In this document: piece after piece, positions 33,415 through 62,844 of the stretch
Numbering within the stretch: position 1 is the stretch's first letter
How the letters are laid out: every line of letters starts with the position of its first letter
Source of the DNA: Gammaproteobacteria bacterium
Lineage (GTDB): Bacteria; Pseudomonadota; Gammaproteobacteria; Eutrophobiales; Eutrophobiaceae
DNA: 64,000 bases
Assembly: GCA_965116495.1 (NCBI GenBank)
Contig: OZ220696.1
Coordinates: 352,001 to 416,000 of the forward strand
Direction of reading: 5' to 3'
Translations under genes and position numbers: made by a program
The notes under the pieces: generated by a model
The model's database searches: none
The model's input: the letters and a program-made list of their open reading frames with translations, nothing else
Told to the model about the DNA's origin: nothing

Positions 33415-33469
33415 TGGGGTCAGGTCGCACAATGCACACTATAGCTGTGCATTGTGCGACCTGACCCCA
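33415..33469. repeat. Family A hairpin doublet (RAYT terminal repeats head to head)
   Basis: 24-bp arms tggggtcaggtcgcacaatgcaca with a 7-nt spacer; followed by a tandem copy of tgaccccatttccg. Confidence 0.9.
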
Positions 33470-40367: not shown

Positions 40368-40432
40368 AGTGATGGGGTCAGGTCGCACATTGCACATGTA
40401 ATGTGTGCAATGTGCGACCTGACCCCATCACT
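40368..40432. repeat. Family A hairpin doublet
   Basis: Perfect 29-bp arms agtgatggggtcaggtcgcacattgcaca with a 7-nt spacer, between convergent genes. Confidence 0.9.
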
Positions 40433-48858: not shown

Positions 48859-48912
48859 ATCCCGCACAGCAAACCAGTTACGATCTGACCCCATTCTACA
48901 TGGGGAAACAGC

Positions 48913-50130
48913 ATGAACGAATTCAGGAAAGGCTGGGGTCCCTTGCTGGCCGCAATGGTAGGCATGATGTGCGGCTTGCTCACAATAACCAATTACTCAC
49001 AGGGCTTCTTCGTCGGTCCCGTTACGGCCGACCTTGGCTGGTCGGTGCCAGAGTTTTTCTTTGCGTTCACGATCTCGGCCTGTCTGGGACTAATTACTGC
49101 CCCGCTCATTGGTTCGCTCGCATTGAAGTACGGCATCAAGCGCATGGGTATTCTCGGACTCGTCGGGCACGCGCTGGCGTATGTATTGATGTCGCTGAAC
49201 AATGGTTCGCTGGCGCTGTGGTACCTGACATTCGCAGCCCTGGCATTTCTCGGAGCGGGTACGCTGCCGGTCATCTGGACGGCCGTCCTCAACGGCTGGT
49301 TTGAGAAGAATCGCGGCAAGGCAATCGGAATTACCATGGCGGGTACCGGGTTAGGCGCATTCCTGTTACCGCCGATCGCTGAGTTCCTGATTTCCAACTA
49401 TGGCTGGCGGACGGCGTACCAGGGTATCGGTATCGGTGCGTTGGTGGTGTCCTTGCCGATAGTCGTTTTGTTGTTCAATGAAAACCCGGAAGCGGGGTCC
49501 GGCAAAGCAAATTCGACAGCGCCGGATACAAGCTGGGGAGTGACGCGCGCGGAAGCGCTGCGCGGCTACCGTTTCTGGGTGCTCGGCAGTGTGTTGTTTA
49601 TCACTGTTTTTGTCATTGTCGGTTTGCTTTCGAATTTCGAGAGAATCATGGTGGCCCAAGGATTGGCACGCGCGGATATCGCAGGTATCGCGGCGACAAT
49701 GGGGTTGACCGTAATCATTGGCCGATTGCTGGTCGGGGTGTTGGTTGACAAATTCTGGGCGCCTGGGGTCGCAGCGGTATTTATTGTGATGCCCATCATC
49801 GCAATGCTGCTGATGAAATATGGCGCCCCGTCAATGCAGACCGGTATAGTCATCGGTATCGCCATAGGACTTGCCGCAGGCGCCGAACTGGACATGCTTG
49901 CCTATCTTACCGGCCGTTACTTCGGACCTGCACATTACCCGGCAGTATTCGGCGGCATTTTTGCTTTTTTTACGGTTGGCGCCGGTATTGCTCCACCACT
50001 GTTCGGCGCGGGCGCGGCGACCTGGAATGGCTACGGTATGGTACTGAACGGCTCGATCGGATTATTGCTCCTGTCGATCATATTGTACCTGAGCTTGGGC
50101 AAATACCCGGATGCCCGGCGTTCCCCGTGA
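48913..50130 (+). CDS. MFS transporter
   Basis: About 12 hydrophobic segments, WFEKNRGKAIG and GAELD...RYFG motifs. Confidence 0.92.
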   Translation: MNEFRKGWGPLLAAMVGMMCGLLTITNYSQGFFVGPVTADLGWSVPEFFFAFTISACLGLITAPLIGSLALKYGIKRMGILGLVGHALAYVLMSLNNGSLALWYLTFAALAFLGAGTLPVIWTAVLNGWFEKNRGKAIGITMAGTGLGAFLLPPIAEFLISNYGWRTAYQGIGIGALVVSLPIVVLLFNENPEAGSGKANSTAPDTSWGVTRAEALRGYRFWVLGSVLFITVFVIVGLLSNFERIMVAQGLARADIAGIAATMGLTVIIGRLLVGVLVDKFWAPGVAAVFIVMPIIAMLLMKYGAPSMQTGIVIGIAIGLAAGAELDMLAYLTGRYFGPAHYPAVFGGIFAFFTVGAGIAPPLFGAGAATWNGYGMVLNGSIGLLLLSIILYLSLGKYPDARRSP

Positions 50131-50406
50131 TGGGGTCAGGTCGCACAATGCACACCGCCCGTAACTGGTTCCACATTAAAAGGTTTTCAAGGATATCCCG
50201 AAGCCGCAAACGCTGGCTCCACCCAGACTGCTTGACCACTACGAATCGGTATTTACGACGCGTCAAAGCGCTATGGCTGCTGCCTATCGGTCAGGACATT
50301 ACACCATGGTTGAAGTGGCGGAGTACTTTGGAGTCAACAGAACTACAGTGGGCCGAACGTTGAAAGAACGAGCCTCAAGTGTGCATTGTGCGACCTGACC
50401 TCATTC
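50129..50406 (+). mobile_element. Non-autonomous internal-deletion derivative of the RAYT element
   Basis: Left ~48 bp matches 51441-51489; the rest matches 52243-52470 (3' end of the transposase and right repeat). Confidence 0.9.
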
Positions 50407-50500
50407 ACGCTTTCTTCTCCCAATCGTCTGTGGTGTTTGTCCTGGCCAGTGTAATGATTTTGCTCATTGGTGTATCGGTTATTTATCTATTTTGAAGGGT

Positions 50501-51370
50501 TCAGATTATAAAGATTCCTGCGTCAGTATTAACCTGGTCTGATGAGATGTCCGCGTCAGTGTCAGTATTAACTTGGTCCGATGAGGTATCCGCGTTGGTA
50601 TCCACTTCTACCACATCGATGTTTGCGAAGAAATCCATTGTACCGTCCCCGTCGATATCGAGATCGAAGGTGTCGGGGTTGGTATTGATGTCGTGGATAT
50701 CGGAAACGAGATCGGGTTCAATCCAGCGGTAATATTCGCTTTCTTCGGTAATGATGAGGCCGTTTTCATCATAAACGGGGGAACGGCCGGTGCCGTCGGC
50801 GTTTTCGCTGATAGGAGCTTCGCGAGTATAGTATCCTTCTGTATCCATCTCTCCATTTTGGTTTGTGTCAATCCACATTTTTATTTGATATTGCTTGTTT
50901 TCCTCCAGGCCTGAAAACCAGGTAACGCTTCCGAAGCGGTCAAAGCCTAATTCTATCAAGGTATCGCTGGGATTATTCAGGACAATCTCTTCATAGTTGA
51001 TATGTATTATTCGCTGCCACTCGCCAGGATTGCCATTTTCATCTAGTTCCCGGATTAGTAGGTAGGTCATATTAACCATCTCTTGTACATATATTGGCCA
51101 GGTTTGTTTAGAGATTGGCCCTTCAGTCGTTGGGTCAAAGTCGGTATGGTGTATGTCTGACTCTGGTTGCCCCTGCCCTTCGTACAACTGATAGAAATCA
51201 CCATCATCATGATCAAAGTCCATGTAGAGAGCGAAGCCGGTTTCATTGTTGATTACATCGAGGTGTATTGAGTATTTGCTGGTCAGTCCGAGGTCGTCCA
51301 GTGTATTGCTGCCGGTCTGTTCAAGGTCTAGTGTAAATTCGGCCATGTCTTGCATTGTGGTTTTCCTCAT
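50501..51370 (-). CDS. Very acidic hypothetical protein with DxDxDG-like Ca-binding loops
   Basis: 289-aa ORF with RBS gagg; DFDHDDGD, DTNQNGEMD and DIDGDGTMD motifs; duplicated C-terminal AD(T/I)SSDQVNTD. Confidence 0.7.
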   Translation of the reverse strand: MRKTTMQDMAEFTLDLEQTGSNTLDDLGLTSKYSIHLDVINNETGFALYMDFDHDDGDFYQLYEGQGQPESDIHHTDFDPTTEGPISKQTWPIYVQEMVNMTYLLIRELDENGNPGEWQRIIHINYEEIVLNNPSDTLIELGFDRFGSVTWFSGLEENKQYQIKMWIDTNQNGEMDTEGYYTREAPISENADGTGRSPVYDENGLIITEESEYYRWIEPDLVSDIHDINTNPDTFDLDIDGDGTMDFFANIDVVEVDTNADTSSDQVNTDTDADISSDQVNTDAGIFII

Positions 51371-51440
51371 TGAGAATTGGAGAAATCTAAATAACCTTAT
51401 CTAATGCCGGGAGAATAAGCAAATTTATAGGCTTAGTGCG

Positions 51441-52472
51441 GATGGGGTCAGGTCGCACAATGCACATCGCCCGTAACAGGTTCCAGATTGGCCTGATCTA
51501 TTTGAAAAGCAGGTAGACTATTAGTAGGATTTCAACTAACCTCTGAATAAGTCAGCATTCCGTAACAGGGATTTTGTATAAATCAGCTTTCAAGGATGAA
51601 CTTATGGCAAGACCTCTCCGAATAGAATTTGCAGGAGCACTCTACCACATCACCTCCCGCGGTAACGCACGTGCTGATATATTTTCAGATGATTTTGACC
51701 GTTATCAATTTCTCAAGCTGCTGGGTGAAGCAGGCAAGCGGTTTGGTTGGTTGTGTCATGCGTACTGCTTAATGTCCAACCACTATCACTTGCTCATCGA
51801 AATCGGCCAGCCCGGATTGTCTAAGGGAATGCGCTTCCTCAACGGCGTTTATACGCAACGCTATAATAAACGACATGCCAGAGTAGGGCACTTGTTCCAG
51901 GGCCGGTTCAAAGGAATCCTGGTAGAGAGTGACGCCTATTTTTTAGAGCTGGTACGGTACATTGTTTTAAACCCCGTTCGAGCCCGGATGGTGAGACAGG
52001 CTCAAGAATGGCCTTGGAGCAGTTACCGGGCCACGGCAGGGCTGGCACGCCCCGAACCTTGTTTAACAATTGACAGGGTATTAGCCGAATTTTCGGAAAG
52101 GTGTGACAGTGCAAGAGCGAAGTATCAGGAGTTTGTTAACACCGATCAAAACCAACCCTCACCTTGGGAGAATCTCAAAAATCAAATTTACCTGGGCTCG
52201 GATTCCTTTGTGCAGGAAATGCTGAATCATATAGAACCGGATAAGGTTTCTAAGGATATCCCGAAGCCGCAAACGCTGGCTCCTCCTAAACCGCTTGACT
52301 ACTACGAATCAGCATTTACGACGCGTCAAAGCGCAATGTCTGCTGCCTATCGGTCAGGGCATTACACTATGGTTAAAGTGGCGGAGCATTTTGGAGTCAG
52401 CAGAACTACAGTGGGCCGAGCGTTGAAAGAATGAGCCTCAAGTGTGCATTGTGCGACCTGACCCCATTCTAC
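51441..52472 (+). mobile_element. RAYT element bounded by ~26-bp inverted repeats
   Basis: gatggggtcaggtcgcacaatgcaca ... tgtgcattgtgcgacctgaccccattc enclosing the transposase gene. Confidence 0.9.
51604..52434 (+). CDS. REP-associated tyrosine (Y1/HUH) transposase with a C-terminal HTH
   Basis: MARPLR..., YHITSRGN, AYCLMSNHYHLL (HUH), GHLFQGRF, YIVLNPVRA (catalytic Tyr), WPWSSY and VAEHFGVSRTTV. Confidence 0.92.
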   Translation: MARPLRIEFAGALYHITSRGNARADIFSDDFDRYQFLKLLGEAGKRFGWLCHAYCLMSNHYHLLIEIGQPGLSKGMRFLNGVYTQRYNKRHARVGHLFQGRFKGILVESDAYFLELVRYIVLNPVRARMVRQAQEWPWSSYRATAGLARPEPCLTIDRVLAEFSERCDSARAKYQEFVNTDQNQPSPWENLKNQIYLGSDSFVQEMLNHIEPDKVSKDIPKPQTLAPPKPLDYYESAFTTRQSAMSAAYRSGHYTMVKVAEHFGVSRTTVGRALKE

Positions 52473-52522
52473 CTGGGCAAATACCCGGATGCCCGGCGTT
52501 CCCCGGGTTGGGCACCGGTACC

Positions 52523-52915
52523 CTATTGTGGCATGTAGTTAATTCTGAAGGGGTTTCCTTCCGGGTCTCTTAATACCGCTTGATACCAACCATAGTAGGT
52601 TTCAAACGGCGGTTTAAGCATTGTTCCACCCAGTTCAACTGCATAATTGCAACGAGCATCAACATCTTCCCGGCTTGATGCACCAAAGGTTATTAAGAGC
52701 GTGTCTGTTTGGGTATCTGGTTTAGTTAGTGACAAAAGCCCGTAGGCATCCAGGCTACTTATGCCGATACAACATGCGCCTGTTTCGAAGCCTCTGAAAT
52801 AATCTGAACGACTTGCCGTTATCTCTTCAAGATTAAATAGTGTTTGATAATACTCAGCAAGGGCAACCATGTTCTTTGCAAACACATTGACATAGAATAA
52901 TGGATATTTATTCAT
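52523..52915 (-). CDS. VOC/glyoxalase family protein
   Basis: ELGGTMLKPPFETYYGWYQAVLRDPEGNPFRI. Confidence 0.85.
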   Translation of the reverse strand: MNKYPLFYVNVFAKNMVALAEYYQTLFNLEEITASRSDYFRGFETGACCIGISSLDAYGLLSLTKPDTQTDTLLITFGASSREDVDARCNYAVELGGTMLKPPFETYYGWYQAVLRDPEGNPFRINYMPQ

Positions 52916-52932
52916 TTTATTTCTTAATAGAG

Positions 52933-53916
52933 TCAAGCTGATTTTCCGTACGTTTTCTCATACATGTAAGCAACATGTTCCCCGGCAGTCGTCTCCGGGA
53001 AATCCAGCTCTCCGGATTCAGGCATGCAGGTAGGGACACATTTGACCTTGTAAAAATAATCAGGATCAAAGAAAGTGGGGCAGGAATAGCGGCTTTTGCC
53101 ACTCTGGTTATTAACGACACGGTGCATATTGGAGCGATATACACCATTGGTGAACACACGCATCATTTCGCCCAGATTGACGACAAACGTGCCTTCTATT
53201 GGAGGGGTTCTGATCCAGTCACCTGCGGAGTTTTGCACTTCCAATCCGCCAATATCGTCCTGCAAAAGCATGGTTAACATACCCCAGTCCGTGTGTGCCC
53301 CTGCCCCAAGTTGATTGGCAACAATTTCGGATTCCTGGGACGGATAATGCAGCAGACGGCCAACCATCACAGGTTCGGATAAGCCCTCGTCGAAATAAGC
53401 CTCGGTCAGATCCAGTGACAAGGCGAGTATCTTTGAAAGCGTTCTGCCCAGGTCCCGCATCAAATCAACATATTCATTAAATGAATCTTTAAAACCCTCT
53501 GGTTGTTCCGGCCATTGATTGGAACCCGTGTTGGGCACTCCTTGTTTCACATAAGGGTGGTTTTCATCCAGGTCATTACCGATAAGAAAGCCTTCTTTTA
53601 AATCGGGTGGCGAACCTTCGTCTAACGTCTGTGCCTTGATAGGTTCGTAGCCGCGAGTACAGGATGAGTTGTTGATATGAACTCTGTTCTTATCCGCTGC
53701 AGGCAAAGCGAAGAATAGTCTTGCCAGCTCAAGATGTTGCTCCATGCGCTCAACAGGAATGCCGTGGTTACTGATATAAAAGAATCCTGTTTCCCTGGAG
53801 GCTTTATGCACCTCCCATGCCACGGCTTTCTTCGCCTCTATATCACCGGAAAAATAAGGGGTAAGGTCAATAACCGGTATCCTGTCAGCGGCCTTTGCGG
53901 GGGTGTAAGTAATCAT
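52933..53916 (-). CDS. 2-oxoglutarate/Fe(II) oxygenase (IPNS-like)
   Basis: IPVIDL, GFFYISNHGI, HTD...H facial triad and RYS motif. Confidence 0.92.
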   Translation of the reverse strand: MITYTPAKAADRIPVIDLTPYFSGDIEAKKAVAWEVHKASRETGFFYISNHGIPVERMEQHLELARLFFALPAADKNRVHINNSSCTRGYEPIKAQTLDEGSPPDLKEGFLIGNDLDENHPYVKQGVPNTGSNQWPEQPEGFKDSFNEYVDLMRDLGRTLSKILALSLDLTEAYFDEGLSEPVMVGRLLHYPSQESEIVANQLGAGAHTDWGMLTMLLQDDIGGLEVQNSAGDWIRTPPIEGTFVVNLGEMMRVFTNGVYRSNMHRVVNNQSGKSRYSCPTFFDPDYFYKVKCVPTCMPESGELDFPETTAGEHVAYMYEKTYGKSA

Positions 53917-54088
53917 AGAATGGGGTCAGGTCGCACAATGCACGTTGTAATCATAGAATGGGGTCAGGTCGCACAATACACGTTGTAGGTGAAGTGACGT
54001 TGTATTTTGGAATCAGCAGAACTGCAGCGGGCCGAACGTTGAAAGAATGAGCCTCAAGTGTGCATTGTGCGACCTGACCCCATTCTAC
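53917..54088 (+). mobile_element. Second RAYT deletion derivative with a duplicated left end
   Basis: 38-bp tandem (53909-53946, 53947-53984) containing the left repeat, then the last ~50 bp of the transposase gene and the right repeat. Confidence 0.85.
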
Positions 54089-54091
54089 ATT

Positions 54092-55291
54092 CTACCCATT
54101 TAACTGGACTCTGAGTTCGCTTACTTCGCTGACAAACATATTGGTGTTTATCTTGAAGCTTTTTAACCGGGCATTGGAGTAGCTGCCTACCAGTTCTGCG
54201 ACGGCTTCCTGGGTCTCGATTAATGCTACATGCTGGCCGAGACAGGAGTATAGGCCGCCGCCGAAGTCCAGCAGATGGTGGACAACTTTCCGGGTCGGAT
54301 CGTAGCGTAACGGATCGTCGTAAACCCTCGGGTCGCGGTGGGCCGCGGGTATCAAGTGATGGACCGGTGTGCCTTCAGGGATCAGGACTCCACCATATTC
54401 CAGGTCTTCTGAAGCATAGCGCATCAGCGTATTGATACGGCCGGACAAACGGATAGTTTCATCGACAGCAGCAGGAATCAGCTCAGGATGATCAATGACT
54501 TGTTGCCAGCGTTGCCTGTCACTCGCAAGCCGGCCGATGACCGTGGCGATGCCATGGGCGGTATTGTCGGTACTGGCCTCGTTGAACATGGAGACAATGT
54601 GGAACAACTCCTGCTCACTGAAATGACCGGCCTGGTGCTGGGCAATGAAATTGGCGAGGAGATTTTCCTTCGGCGCTTCCATTGCATTGTCTATGAGGCT
54701 TTGGACATAGGGAAACAATTCATCGTAGGCGGCGATAATACCGGGGGTAAATTCAGGATTTCTGCTGAATATCTTCAGAAGCCGGTCAGACAGGTCGGCG
54801 ATCCAGGGGGCATCACTCAGCGGTGCGCCAAACCATAGACAAAACAGGCTGGATGGGACCGAAAAAGCAAAATCGTGCAGCAGATCGGTTTCTGTGTCCG
54901 GCTCTATGTTCTGCAGGAGGTCCTTGACCAGTTGCCGGATCATGGGGCGTTGTTCTTCGATAACCGAGGCGCCGATTGCCCGCGTCAATGCCTGGCGGAT
55001 ACGCGTGCGGTATGCATCCCGGCCGTGGCTTAATAACATGCATCTCTTGAATTCCTTTGCCGGTCCTTCAGGAAAGTTCATGGCCTCGACCAGGCCCATA
55101 TGATCTGAATGTAAGCGCCGATCCCTTAACAAGCCGACACATTCCTTATGTCCCAGCACTTCCAGCCCGCGGGCACTGCGGGCGAAGGGCCCCCGTTCGT
55201 GGGCCGACATGACAATAGCATCAAAATCGTCACTGGAGGCAAAGGCTGCGGTGATATCAATGGTGGGGAGTTGGTCGATGGTGAGTGTCAT
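54092..55291 (-). CDS. Cytochrome P450
   Basis: ETIR (ExxR), AHRDP and FGGGLYSCLG heme motif. Confidence 0.93.
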   Translation of the reverse strand: MTLTIDQLPTIDITAAFASSDDFDAIVMSAHERGPFARSARGLEVLGHKECVGLLRDRRLHSDHMGLVEAMNFPEGPAKEFKRCMLLSHGRDAYRTRIRQALTRAIGASVIEEQRPMIRQLVKDLLQNIEPDTETDLLHDFAFSVPSSLFCLWFGAPLSDAPWIADLSDRLLKIFSRNPEFTPGIIAAYDELFPYVQSLIDNAMEAPKENLLANFIAQHQAGHFSEQELFHIVSMFNEASTDNTAHGIATVIGRLASDRQRWQQVIDHPELIPAAVDETIRLSGRINTLMRYASEDLEYGGVLIPEGTPVHHLIPAAHRDPRVYDDPLRYDPTRKVVHHLLDFGGGLYSCLGQHVALIETQEAVAELVGSYSNARLKSFKINTNMFVSEVSELRVQLNG

Positions 55292-56695: not shown

Positions 56696-56750
56696 TTGCA
56701 GGAATTCTCCCTGATTCTACAGGTTGCGTCAACGCAGTTGTTTGCCCGGC

Positions 56751-56824
56751 AAATTTGGGACAGCCATAAATTTCGGACCAGTATAAATTTGGACTGACCA
56801 TCAATTTATGGGTGTCCCAAATTT
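56751..56824. repeat. Family C hairpin (AAATTTGGGACA-CCATAAATT arms)
   Basis: aaatttgggacagccataaatt...aatttatgggtgtcccaaattt; homologous to 61273-61408. Confidence 0.8.
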
Positions 56825-56862
56825 ACTTCCCTGAATATGCTGGTGGCATCAACAACGCGCGA

Positions 56863-61267: not shown

Positions 61268-61272
61268 CCGGC

Positions 61273-61408
61273 AAATTTGGGACACCCATAAATTTGGTTC
61301 AAAATTCAGCCGCCCATGGATTGATGGTCAGCCCGAAATTCATGGGTGTCCCAAATTCACACCGGCCCGAAATTTATGGGTGTCCCAAATTTATATCCCA
61401 AATTTATA
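61273..61408. repeat. Family C hairpin with duplicated right arms
   Basis: aaatttgggacacccataaattt followed by two atgggtgtcccaaatt arms and a partial cccaaatttata repeat. Confidence 0.8.
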
Positions 61409-62695: not shown

Positions 62696-62830
62696 GAAAG
62701 GTGTCGCCTTAGGCGACTCGTTATATCACTGGGTTCCCGCTTGCGCGGGAATGACGGAGTTGCGCGGAAATGACGGAGTTGCGCAAATGACGGAGTTGCG
62801 CGGGAATGGCGGAGTTGCGCAGGAACGACA
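62665..62830. repeat. GTC(A/G)TTCC-N-GGAATCCA REP doublet plus four tandem 17-19-bp end repeats
   Basis: cgtcgttcctgcgaaagcaggaatccagt ... actgggttcccgcttgcgcgggaatgacg, then four degenerate gagttgcgcgggaatgacg units. Confidence 0.85.
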
Positions 62831-62844
62831 GCAGGTAATGCTGG

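What the first reader, a model, noticed from the sequence alone, without database searches (positions are those of the whole stretch)
50129..54088. RAYT behaving like a TIR transposon with a graded series of non-autonomous derivatives
Seen: the intact gene is bounded by single ~26-bp inverted repeats. Derivatives of ~280 bp and ~170 bp keep both ends plus the transposase 3' end, and ~55-65-bp doublets keep only the ends. Established: classical RAYTs are viewed as immobile, domesticated genes beside GTAG/CAGA REPs. Inference: this HTH-bearing RAYT subgroup is mobile, and the series shows how REPIN-like repeats arise by internal deletion.
Basis: partly seen in the sequence, partly recalled or inferred. 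Interest (0 to 1): 0.72.

Follow-up and report, generated by a model that had tools for sequence, protein, structure and literature searches.

The report
Mobile RAYT with mirrored capped ends
A tyrosine transposase gene of a class usually called domesticated has changed place and host in this bacterial genus, and its roughly 45 miniature two-armed repeats mostly carry a variable 6-7-base cap mirrored on both arms, likely the footprint of an enzyme that cuts and rejoins one DNA end at a time instead of cutting and pasting both.

Summary
The anatomy is real. It is a TIRtron (TIRYT; RAYT group 1, subclass 2.1), a known but little-studied class; the scan met TIRtron doublets before in other genomes. 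Mobility is supported: a relative has the empty allele; here a 2.3-kb block ending in the element lies between identical 32-bp direct repeats; the element is 93% identical in a species whose rpoB is 79% identical; one other genome holds two 99% copies with different flanks. 'TIR transposon with internal deletions' fits only partly: 6 of 45 miniature copies trace to this element, target junctions vary from -44 to +32 bp, and solo ends form head-to-tail arrays. Not found in the papers searched: the 6-7 bases outside the conserved GGGG differ between copies but mirror each other within a copy (72 of 122 doublets; chance 1%), three other repeat families of the same genome lack this, the cap is absent from empty sites (0 of 17), and stutter duplications restart at it. 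Inferred mechanism: a single-strand nick 6-7 nt outside the repeat and one-ended rejoining; doublets can arise by copying one end. No biochemistry was done.

The parts
51604..52434 (+). TIRYT gene, 276 aa: HUH (H60-Y61-H62), catalytic Y119 in a Y---NP motif, WSS motif, C-terminal helix-turn-helix
51444..51466 (+). left terminal inverted repeat core of the intact element
51437..51443 (+). left cap of the intact element (not a mirror of the right cap)
52443..52465 (-). right terminal inverted repeat core of the intact element
52466..52472 (-). right cap (7 nt); the same cap is joined to four other flanks in this and related genomes
52350..52367 (+). cryptic look-alike of the repeat inside the gene; the point where the left arm of the 80-125-bp derivatives is attached
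   Evidence: sequence shows it directly
50132..50402 (+). 271-bp internal-deletion derivative (element bases 1-48 + 802-1026, 91-94% identical); its cap supplies the present stop codon of the MFS gene
50096..50127 (+). left copy of a 32-bp direct duplication (3' end of the MFS gene)
52474..52505 (+). right copy of the 32-bp direct duplication, running on into the native sequence seen in the empty allele
50501..51370 (-). 289-aa orphan ORF carried between the derivative and the intact element; absent from the empty allele
53960..54081 (+). 122-bp doublet: last 76 nt inside the right repeat, two arms, caps mirrored over 6 nt and of right-end type
53915..53952 (+). 38-bp tandem (stutter) copy of the doublet's cap and left arm
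33416..33468 (.). 53-bp doublet; the orthologous copy in G001 and G019 is 100 bp and still carries transposase 3' sequence; right cap stuttered
40374..40426 (.). 53-bp doublet with 6-nt mirrored caps; orthologue in G016 has a 39-nt spacer; one run holds an allele without it
48885..48899 (-). remnant right end (8 nt of repeat plus the same 7-nt cap) just upstream of the MFS gene

Best explanation
This is a TIRtron that has moved within and between genomes, and its TIRYT protein likely acts on one end at a time: it is predicted to bind the 23-bp repeat, nick one strand 6-7 nt 5' of the GGGG whatever the bases there, hold cap plus repeat as a 5'-phosphotyrosine, and join it to a free 3'-OH. Shown by sequence: the element, empty and filled alleles, transfer between species, mirrored locus-variable caps with a sharp edge, stutters that restart at the cap, solo-end arrays, junctions with variable gain or loss of target, ends re-joined at several points of the neighbouring gene. 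Inferred: (1) rejoining after short extension of the same nick gives stutters; (2) joining to nearby 3' ends gives adjacent deletions and 2-50-bp duplications; (3) copying one end onto the other side gives a doublet with mirrored caps, for instance the right end copied onto the look-alike at 52350-52367; (4) host template switching between arms later flips, swaps or collapses spacers. Odds: element mobile as a unit 0.85; cap belongs to the transferred strand 0.65; nick at -6/-7 by this protein 0.5.
For: Protein: HUH, Y---NP and fold closest to TnpA-REP 4ER8. HUH nicking leaves 5'-phosphotyrosine and a 3'-OH that can prime or attack; an extend-and-rejoin model exists for BIMEs (PMC8266576; PMC3333891). 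Empty allele in G019, identical 32-bp repeats here that share 4 bases absent from G016 and G019. Fourfold-site difference, element versus rpoB: G010 20/117 versus 111/224; G001 19/119 versus 86/255. Other taxa: homology stops at the repeats, flanks unrelated; two 99.3% copies in one assembly. Caps: match between arms 0.70-0.96 at -1 to -6, 0.54 at -7, 0.30 at -8 (control 0.27), 39 different 6-mers in 46 pairs; repeated in 60 doublets of relatives; 72 of 122 with a run of 6 or more, chance 0.98%; absent in three other families, n = 52, 37, 43. Cap not in the empty site: 0 of 17 whole, 4 of 17 with 5 nt or more, 4.6 expected. Own 7-mer cap recurs within 40 nt upstream in 45 of 266 ends, 0.9 expected. 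G010 shows head-to-tail solo ends restarting at a local cap.
Against: No activity was measured. The gene is single-copy in 4 of 4 genomes with a close intact copy and always next to the same MFS gene; P450 and oxygenase neighbours are also little diverged (0.16-0.19), so the whole island moves too. Genomes with many repeats lack a close intact gene (G018 125, G007 80, G014 80 copies), and G018 has near-identical spacers at two loci. Full-length elements show no mirrored caps (21 loci), the 99.3% pair does not share a 7-nt cap, and about a dozen doublets from other taxa show a mirrored cap once: the cap rule may be limited to this genus. 50 of 122 doublets have runs under 6. Some caps match the target flank (L362, G000 2009403), and similar caps occur with unrelated spacers at one locus, so cap origin is mixed. 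No conserved dinucleotide marks -7/-8. Empty alleles come from species 73-96% identical in the flanks, so junctions are blurred; relatives' doublets include orthologues and are not independent.
Confidence: 0.55

Rival explanations
1. An ordinary two-ended TIR transposon with MITE-like copies made by internal deletion.
For: Inverted repeats bound the gene; the 271-bp copy is a true internal deletion; 100 > 53 bp at one locus; homology in other taxa ends at the repeats; a C-terminal HTH could bind double-stranded ends.
Against: No direct duplication of 5 nt or more next to any of 46 pairs; junctions lose 27-44 bp or gain 2, 3, 13 or 32 bp; solo-end arrays; 122-bp copies lack left-end sequence and carry right-type caps; most spacers unrelated to the element.
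Confidence: 0.12
2. The gene is domesticated and immobile; it rides in a horizontally moving island, and host recombination and template switching at the repeats produce the rearrangements.
For: Single copy, same neighbour gene in 4 of 4; neighbours also little diverged; spacers flip in place (8 inverted, 5 same), as does 1 of 2 control doublets; template switching homogenises arms and inverts spacers (abstract of PMC8604942); no relative in phage collections and one plasmid record.
Against: Empty allele plus recent 32-bp duplication; element less diverged than the MFS and receptor genes beside it in G001 (0.16 versus 0.35 and 0.29); repeat-bounded homology and a 99.3% pair elsewhere; three other hairpin families under the same host show no mirrored flank.
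Confidence: 0.15
3. TIRYT moves the repeats but cuts at the foot of GGGG; the mirrored cap is target DNA copied in inverted form, or a target hairpin entered at its loop.
For: Purine-pyrimidine is conserved at -2/-1; near-identical spacers carry different mirrored caps; similar caps with unrelated spacers at one locus; target-like caps at L362 and G000 2009403, and nesting inside other palindromes at L093 and L094; spacer inversion leaves caps in place.
Against: The whole cap is in 0 of 17 empty sites, pieces at chance level; one 7-nt cap is joined to several unrelated flanks; stutters restart 6-8 nt out (27 of 64).
Confidence: 0.13
4. Another enzyme (a different TIRYT or a DDE transposase) moves these repeats.
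For: Repeat-rich genomes hold only 34-38% relatives flanked by other repeats.
Against: This repeat bounds this gene in 4 genomes, the only intact class-2 Y1 gene found in G000; other TIRYTs have their own repeats.
Confidence: 0.05

Closest known systems
TIRtron / TIRYT (PMC3733652) = TnpA-Y1 subclass 2.1 (10.1101/279083) = RAYT group 1 (PMC5581495)
   Same: Y1/HUH gene with C-terminal HTH between inverted repeats with GGGGWSAS; repeat families in dimers and clusters.
   Different: [quoted passage not shown]
[quoted passage not shown]
   Same: Same fold and catalytic motifs; single-copy gene; many extragenic doublets with variable spacers (0 of 45 inside long open frames); tandem amplification.
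   Different: Each REP is a hairpin with a GTAG foot and is cut at CT or CA; here a single arm does not fold better than shuffles (z 0.0 and 0.25), has no GTAG, and the gene itself has moved.
IS200/IS605 (IS608, ISDra2)
   Same: Y1 fold; single-strand chemistry; no fixed target duplication.
   Different: Those have asymmetric hairpin ends, guide-selected tetra/pentanucleotide targets and exact junctions; here ends are inverted repeats, caps vary and junctions are imprecise.
IS91-type and Helitron one-ended HUH transposition (recalled; listing only)
   Same: One active end, variable other boundary, carriage of flanking DNA.
   Different: Different HUH family (Y2), dedicated ori and ter ends; not tested here.
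MITEs of DDE transposons
   Same: Short gene-less elements with terminal inverted repeats, some by internal deletion.
   Different: No fixed target duplication; HUH enzyme.

Membership tests
TIRtron/TIRYT (subclass 2.1, group 1) | Y1 core with HUH and Y---NP | tested here: met
   PF01797 E 1.6e-11; H60, H62, Y119, N123, P124 invariant in 39 sequences
TIRtron/TIRYT (subclass 2.1, group 1) | C-terminal HTH extension | tested here: met
   helices 231-275 in the model; HTH_23 in 13 and HTH_28 in 7 of 39 members, below cut-off for this protein alone
TIRtron/TIRYT (subclass 2.1, group 1) | gene flanked by inverted repeats with GGGGWSAS | tested here: met
TIRtron/TIRYT (subclass 2.1, group 1) | placement in the published clade by tree or clustering | not tested
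   reference sequence sets were not fetched
Canonical REPIN-RAYT (groups 2, 3) | hairpin REP with GTAG foot | tested here: not met
   single arms fold no better than shuffles; no GTAG foot; NF047646 72 bits, cut-off 80
Canonical REPIN-RAYT (groups 2, 3) | gene fixed and vertically inherited | tested here: not met
   empty allele, patchy presence (4 of 23), transfer
Canonical REPIN-RAYT (groups 2, 3) | many extragenic inverted doublets per genome | tested here: met
   44 short pairs in G000
DDE TIR transposon with MITEs | fixed-length direct target duplication | tested here: not met
DDE TIR transposon with MITEs | DDE transposase | tested here: not met
   HUH fold
IS200/IS605 | subterminal hairpins, Y---Q motif, fixed target | tested here: not met
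   Y---NP; no hairpin; no fixed target
any HUH transposase | covalent 5'-phosphotyrosine and strand transfer | not testable with these tools
   needs purified protein

The most novel reading that the evidence does not exclude
Group-1 RAYTs are active one-ended HUH transposases that cut at a measured distance (6-7 nt) from a repeat, not at a sequence, and build REPIN-like doublets de novo by copying a single end; they shuffle and collect neighbouring genes (orphan ORF, VapBC, exchanger, sulfatases) and are the mobile stage from which domesticated RAYT-REPIN systems arise.
Probability: 0.35. Interest if true: 0.78.

Novelty: new variant of a known kind. Interest (0 to 1): 0.58.

Why it matters
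Whether any RAYT moves itself, and how two-armed REPIN-like repeats are born, are open questions in the papers read; subclass 2.1 is the second largest Y1 subclass (14.9% of strains) and no biochemistry on it turned up in the searches. This locus gives comparative evidence of mobility and an exact, cheap prediction (a nick 6-7 nt outside GGGG, cap carried along, one end enough) that the published cleavage-and-strand-transfer assay can test.

Tried and rejected
Fixed direct target duplication: none of 3 nt or of 5-8 nt directly at the ends of 46 pairs, 2 of 46 at 4 nt; the 2-nt signal (25 of 46) follows from the conserved AT/AC. Caps as inverted target duplication: not general. Generic hairpin correction as the cause of caps: three control families negative. 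Circular intermediate: Logan contigs of 8 runs gave mostly cross-mapped doublets; one 'goes back' joint rests on 32 letters and was not used. Phage or plasmid carriage: none in viral contigs or phage records, one plasmid record at 48.6%. Generality of mirrored caps: a pattern search of 301 class genomes and 5 chosen genomes gave about a dozen doublets, one with a 6-nt mirror, too few to decide. Main ~85-bp family as relic of an older TIRYT stop region: a 12-nt motif like the gene's stop region occurs in 11 of 40 spacers at up to 3 mismatches, without a control; left as a hint. Orphan ORF: no usable hit. Heptamer arrays elsewhere in G000: no repeat arm seen in the two stretches printed. G016 gave no rpoB match, so its host distance is known only from flank identities of about 80%. 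No tree was built and no complex was predicted.
Full report
OBSERVATION. The window (G000:C1:352001-416000) holds an intact gene at 51604-52434 (276 aa) with a Y1 transposase domain (PF01797, E 1.6e-11; NF047646 below its cut-off). H60-Y61-H62 and Y119-x3-N123-P124 are invariant in 39 aligned relatives. The model (mean pLDDT 84.6) matches E. coli TnpA-REP 4ER8 best, then ISDra2 and IS608, and ends in a helical HTH-like domain. Single inverted repeats bound the gene (cores 51444-51466, 52443-52465). The 271-bp copy at 50132-50402 is element bases 1-48 plus 802-1026. The '170-bp' copy is a 122-bp doublet plus a 38-bp tandem copy of its left arm. The genome has one intact gene, 112 repeat cores within 4 mismatches, 46 inverted pairs and 20 unpaired ends; 25 of the 46 pairs are 83-87 bp.

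IDENTITY. This is a TIRtron. PMC3733652 (passages; its Figure 9 and supplements not seen and may show flanks) names RAYT-like genes flanked by repeats with GGGGWSAS 'TIRYT' and notes repeat families in dimers. [quoted passage not shown] PMC5581495 (passages) finds group 1 the most IS-like RAYT group; 10.1101/2021.07.10.451892 (passages) treats it as unable to duplicate. Only two papers in the library hold 'TIRYT' or 'TIRtron'. The scan has 13 earlier notes with these words in other genomes; a look-up for copied arms and empty sites gave none.

MOBILITY. (a) A close intact gene (96-97% aa) occurs in 4 of 23 genomes of the genus, once each. (b) G019 has the empty allele: the MFS gene runs into the glyoxalase gene, while here 2.3 kb (derivative, orphan ORF, intact element) lie between two identical 32-bp copies, 50096-50127 and 52474-52505. 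Both copies share 4 bases that differ from G016 and G019, so the duplication is younger than the split from G016, although G016 has a left end at the same junction; repeated use of one site is the simplest reading. One run shows the G019-like continuation. (c) In G001, G010 and G016 the left end joins the MFS gene at three different points and the genes between the ends differ (VapBC-like pair, P450, AAA protein and exchanger in G016; sulfatases beyond the right end in G010). In G010 element plus MFS sit between other core regions. (d) Fourfold-site differences from G000: element 20/117 versus rpoB 111/224 in G010; 19/119 versus 86/255 in G001. Against a simple reading: P450 and oxygenase are also low (0.16-0.19), so island DNA moves too; rpoB is the only coding baseline. 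(e) Among 77 loci from species genomes, 8 pairs share 500 nt or more at 80% or more; in the Pseudomonas, Nitrosomonas and L141/L150 pairs homology starts at the left repeat and ends at or near the right one with unrelated flanks, and L169/L170 are 99.3% copies in one assembly. 21 of 57 loci with enough flank have the motif on both sides (background 116 of 2010 windows).

THE SERIES. One lineage is graded: 122-bp copies in G000, G001, G016, G019 and G008, 100-bp and 80-bp copies, and the 53-bp doublet at 33416, whose orthologues in G001 and G019 are 100 bp. Their left arms attach at a repeat look-alike inside the gene (52350-52367); 116 nt from there to the end plus 6 nt gives 122. They carry no left-end sequence, and their caps resemble right-end caps. 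In G000, 6 of 45 gene-less pairs trace to this element (four by BLAST, two through orthologues). The rest fall into other spacer groups.

THE CAP. Outside the GGGG the two arms of one doublet match at 0.96, 0.91, 0.80, 0.76, 0.70, 0.76, 0.54 (positions -1 to -7) and 0.30 at -8, against 0.60, 0.73, 0.39, 0.29, 0.26, 0.38, 0.28, 0.27 for arms of different doublets; 46 pairs have 39 different left 6-mers. 60 doublets of relatives repeat this. Of 122 doublets (45 here, 77 in relatives, orthologues included), 72 have a run of 6 or more, with the mode at 6-7; chance 0.98%. Three other GGGG[AT]C palindrome families of G000 (n = 52, 37, 43) sit at control level. The cap is not read from the final target: whole in 0 of 17 empty sites, 5 nt or more in 4 (4.6 expected). 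One 7-nt cap is joined to several unrelated flanks. 64 of 266 ends have another GGGGTC within 80 nt upstream (background 1.8%); the shared stretch before GGGG is 6-8 nt in 27, 0-4 in 22; an end's own 7-mer recurs upstream in 45 of 266 (0.9 expected). G010, the distant host, shows head-to-tail solo ends at several loci and no short doublet among its 39 listed matches; each restart follows a local 5-8-nt cap, and one solo end lies between imperfect ~50-bp direct repeats. Of 60 doublets in relatives, 16 are empty in G000, 21 shared, 23 without colinear flanks; clean pairs show gains of 2, 3 or 13 bp or losses of 27-44 bp.

RESULTS AGAINST. Full-length elements lack mirrored caps (21 loci). The 99.3% pair does not share a 7-nt cap. 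About a dozen doublets from other taxa show one mirror, though three copies in G131 share 5-6-nt caps across loci. In G018, without a close intact gene, spacers one base apart carry different mirrored caps; of 24 orthologous comparisons 8 are inverted, 5 the same, 5 unrelated in spacer, 6 too short; 1 of 2 control doublets is inverted too. So host template switching and spacer exchange act on these repeats, and a few caps look target-derived.

MECHANISM. Established: HUH enzymes form a 5'-phosphotyrosine and a 3'-OH that can prime synthesis or attack (PMC8266576, passages); an extend-and-rejoin model was proposed for BIME arrays (PMC3333891, passages). Inferred here: TIRYT nicks 6-7 nt 5' of GGGG; rejoining after short extension gives stutters; joining elsewhere gives insertions with variable loss or gain and adjacent deletions; copying one end across gives mirrored doublets; flank bases that replace part of a cap become the next cap. 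REPIN papers (PMC3116915, passages and part of section 10; PMC3337134, part 2 of 3) describe asymmetric excision and tandem arrays, not mirrored caps. 10.1101/2020.03.09.984088 (part 1 of 2) reports subclass 2.1 genes and C-terminal fragments among prochlorosin genes, a parallel to the 3' derivatives. 10.1101/2024.07.17.603846 (passages) found no circles of the E. coli RAYT gene. Searches showed no paper on TIRYT mobility or caps; subscription journals are largely outside this library.

VERDICT. Observation partly confirmed; interpretation partly supported. A member of a known class with comparative evidence of mobility and an undescribed, family-specific end signature that makes the mechanism testable. 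New variant of a known kind; interest 0.58.

Noticed in passing
G000 genome-wide; window 1323, 3416, 16496, 28649, 38980: Three further GGGG[AT]C palindrome families (150 of 195 inverted pairs) with no cognate TIRYT gene in this genome; relatives have such genes. Different families occupy the same intergenic sites in different species.
   Followed up: partly
window 56746-56831 and 61268-61399: Another repeat family in direct and inverted copies; also next to solo ends at G000 3654614 and 3661878.
   Followed up: no
window 50501-51370: 289-aa acidic, lower-GC (0.456) orphan ORF with a 39-bp tandem repeat near its end; no usable family or Atlas hit.
   Followed up: partly
L031 7304-13095 (G020): Beside a truncated TIRYT lie pieces 90-93% identical to G000 stretches that adjoin repeat ends (near 591329, 4255077, 4258344), against about 80% for the core around them: possible repeat-linked cargo transfer.
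   Followed up: no
L098-L099 (G020), L078 and L068 (G016): Islands with many same-strand solo ends spaced 0.5-6 kb apart, like cassettes.
   Followed up: no
L023 (G003): A 38%-identical TIRYT of another repeat family also shows stuttered ends restarting after a 7-9-nt cap.
   Followed up: no
L027 15442-15614; L030 4000-4322: A different ~150-170-bp repeat with many copies in G000, one next to a doublet.
   Followed up: no
G000 about 1077700 and 1104400: Heptamer arrays followed by inverted arrays; same unit length as the cap, but no repeat arm seen beside them.
   Followed up: partly
window 53914-53916 and 54092-54094, 50128-50130: Caps overlap the oxygenase start codon, the P450 stop codon and the MFS stop codon, so end movement rewrites gene termini.
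   Followed up: partly
G000 2244784-2245140 (L001): An IS200-type Y1 gene with two internal stops.
   Followed up: no
window 62745-62835: Tandem 17-19-nt GC-rich repeats.
   Followed up: no
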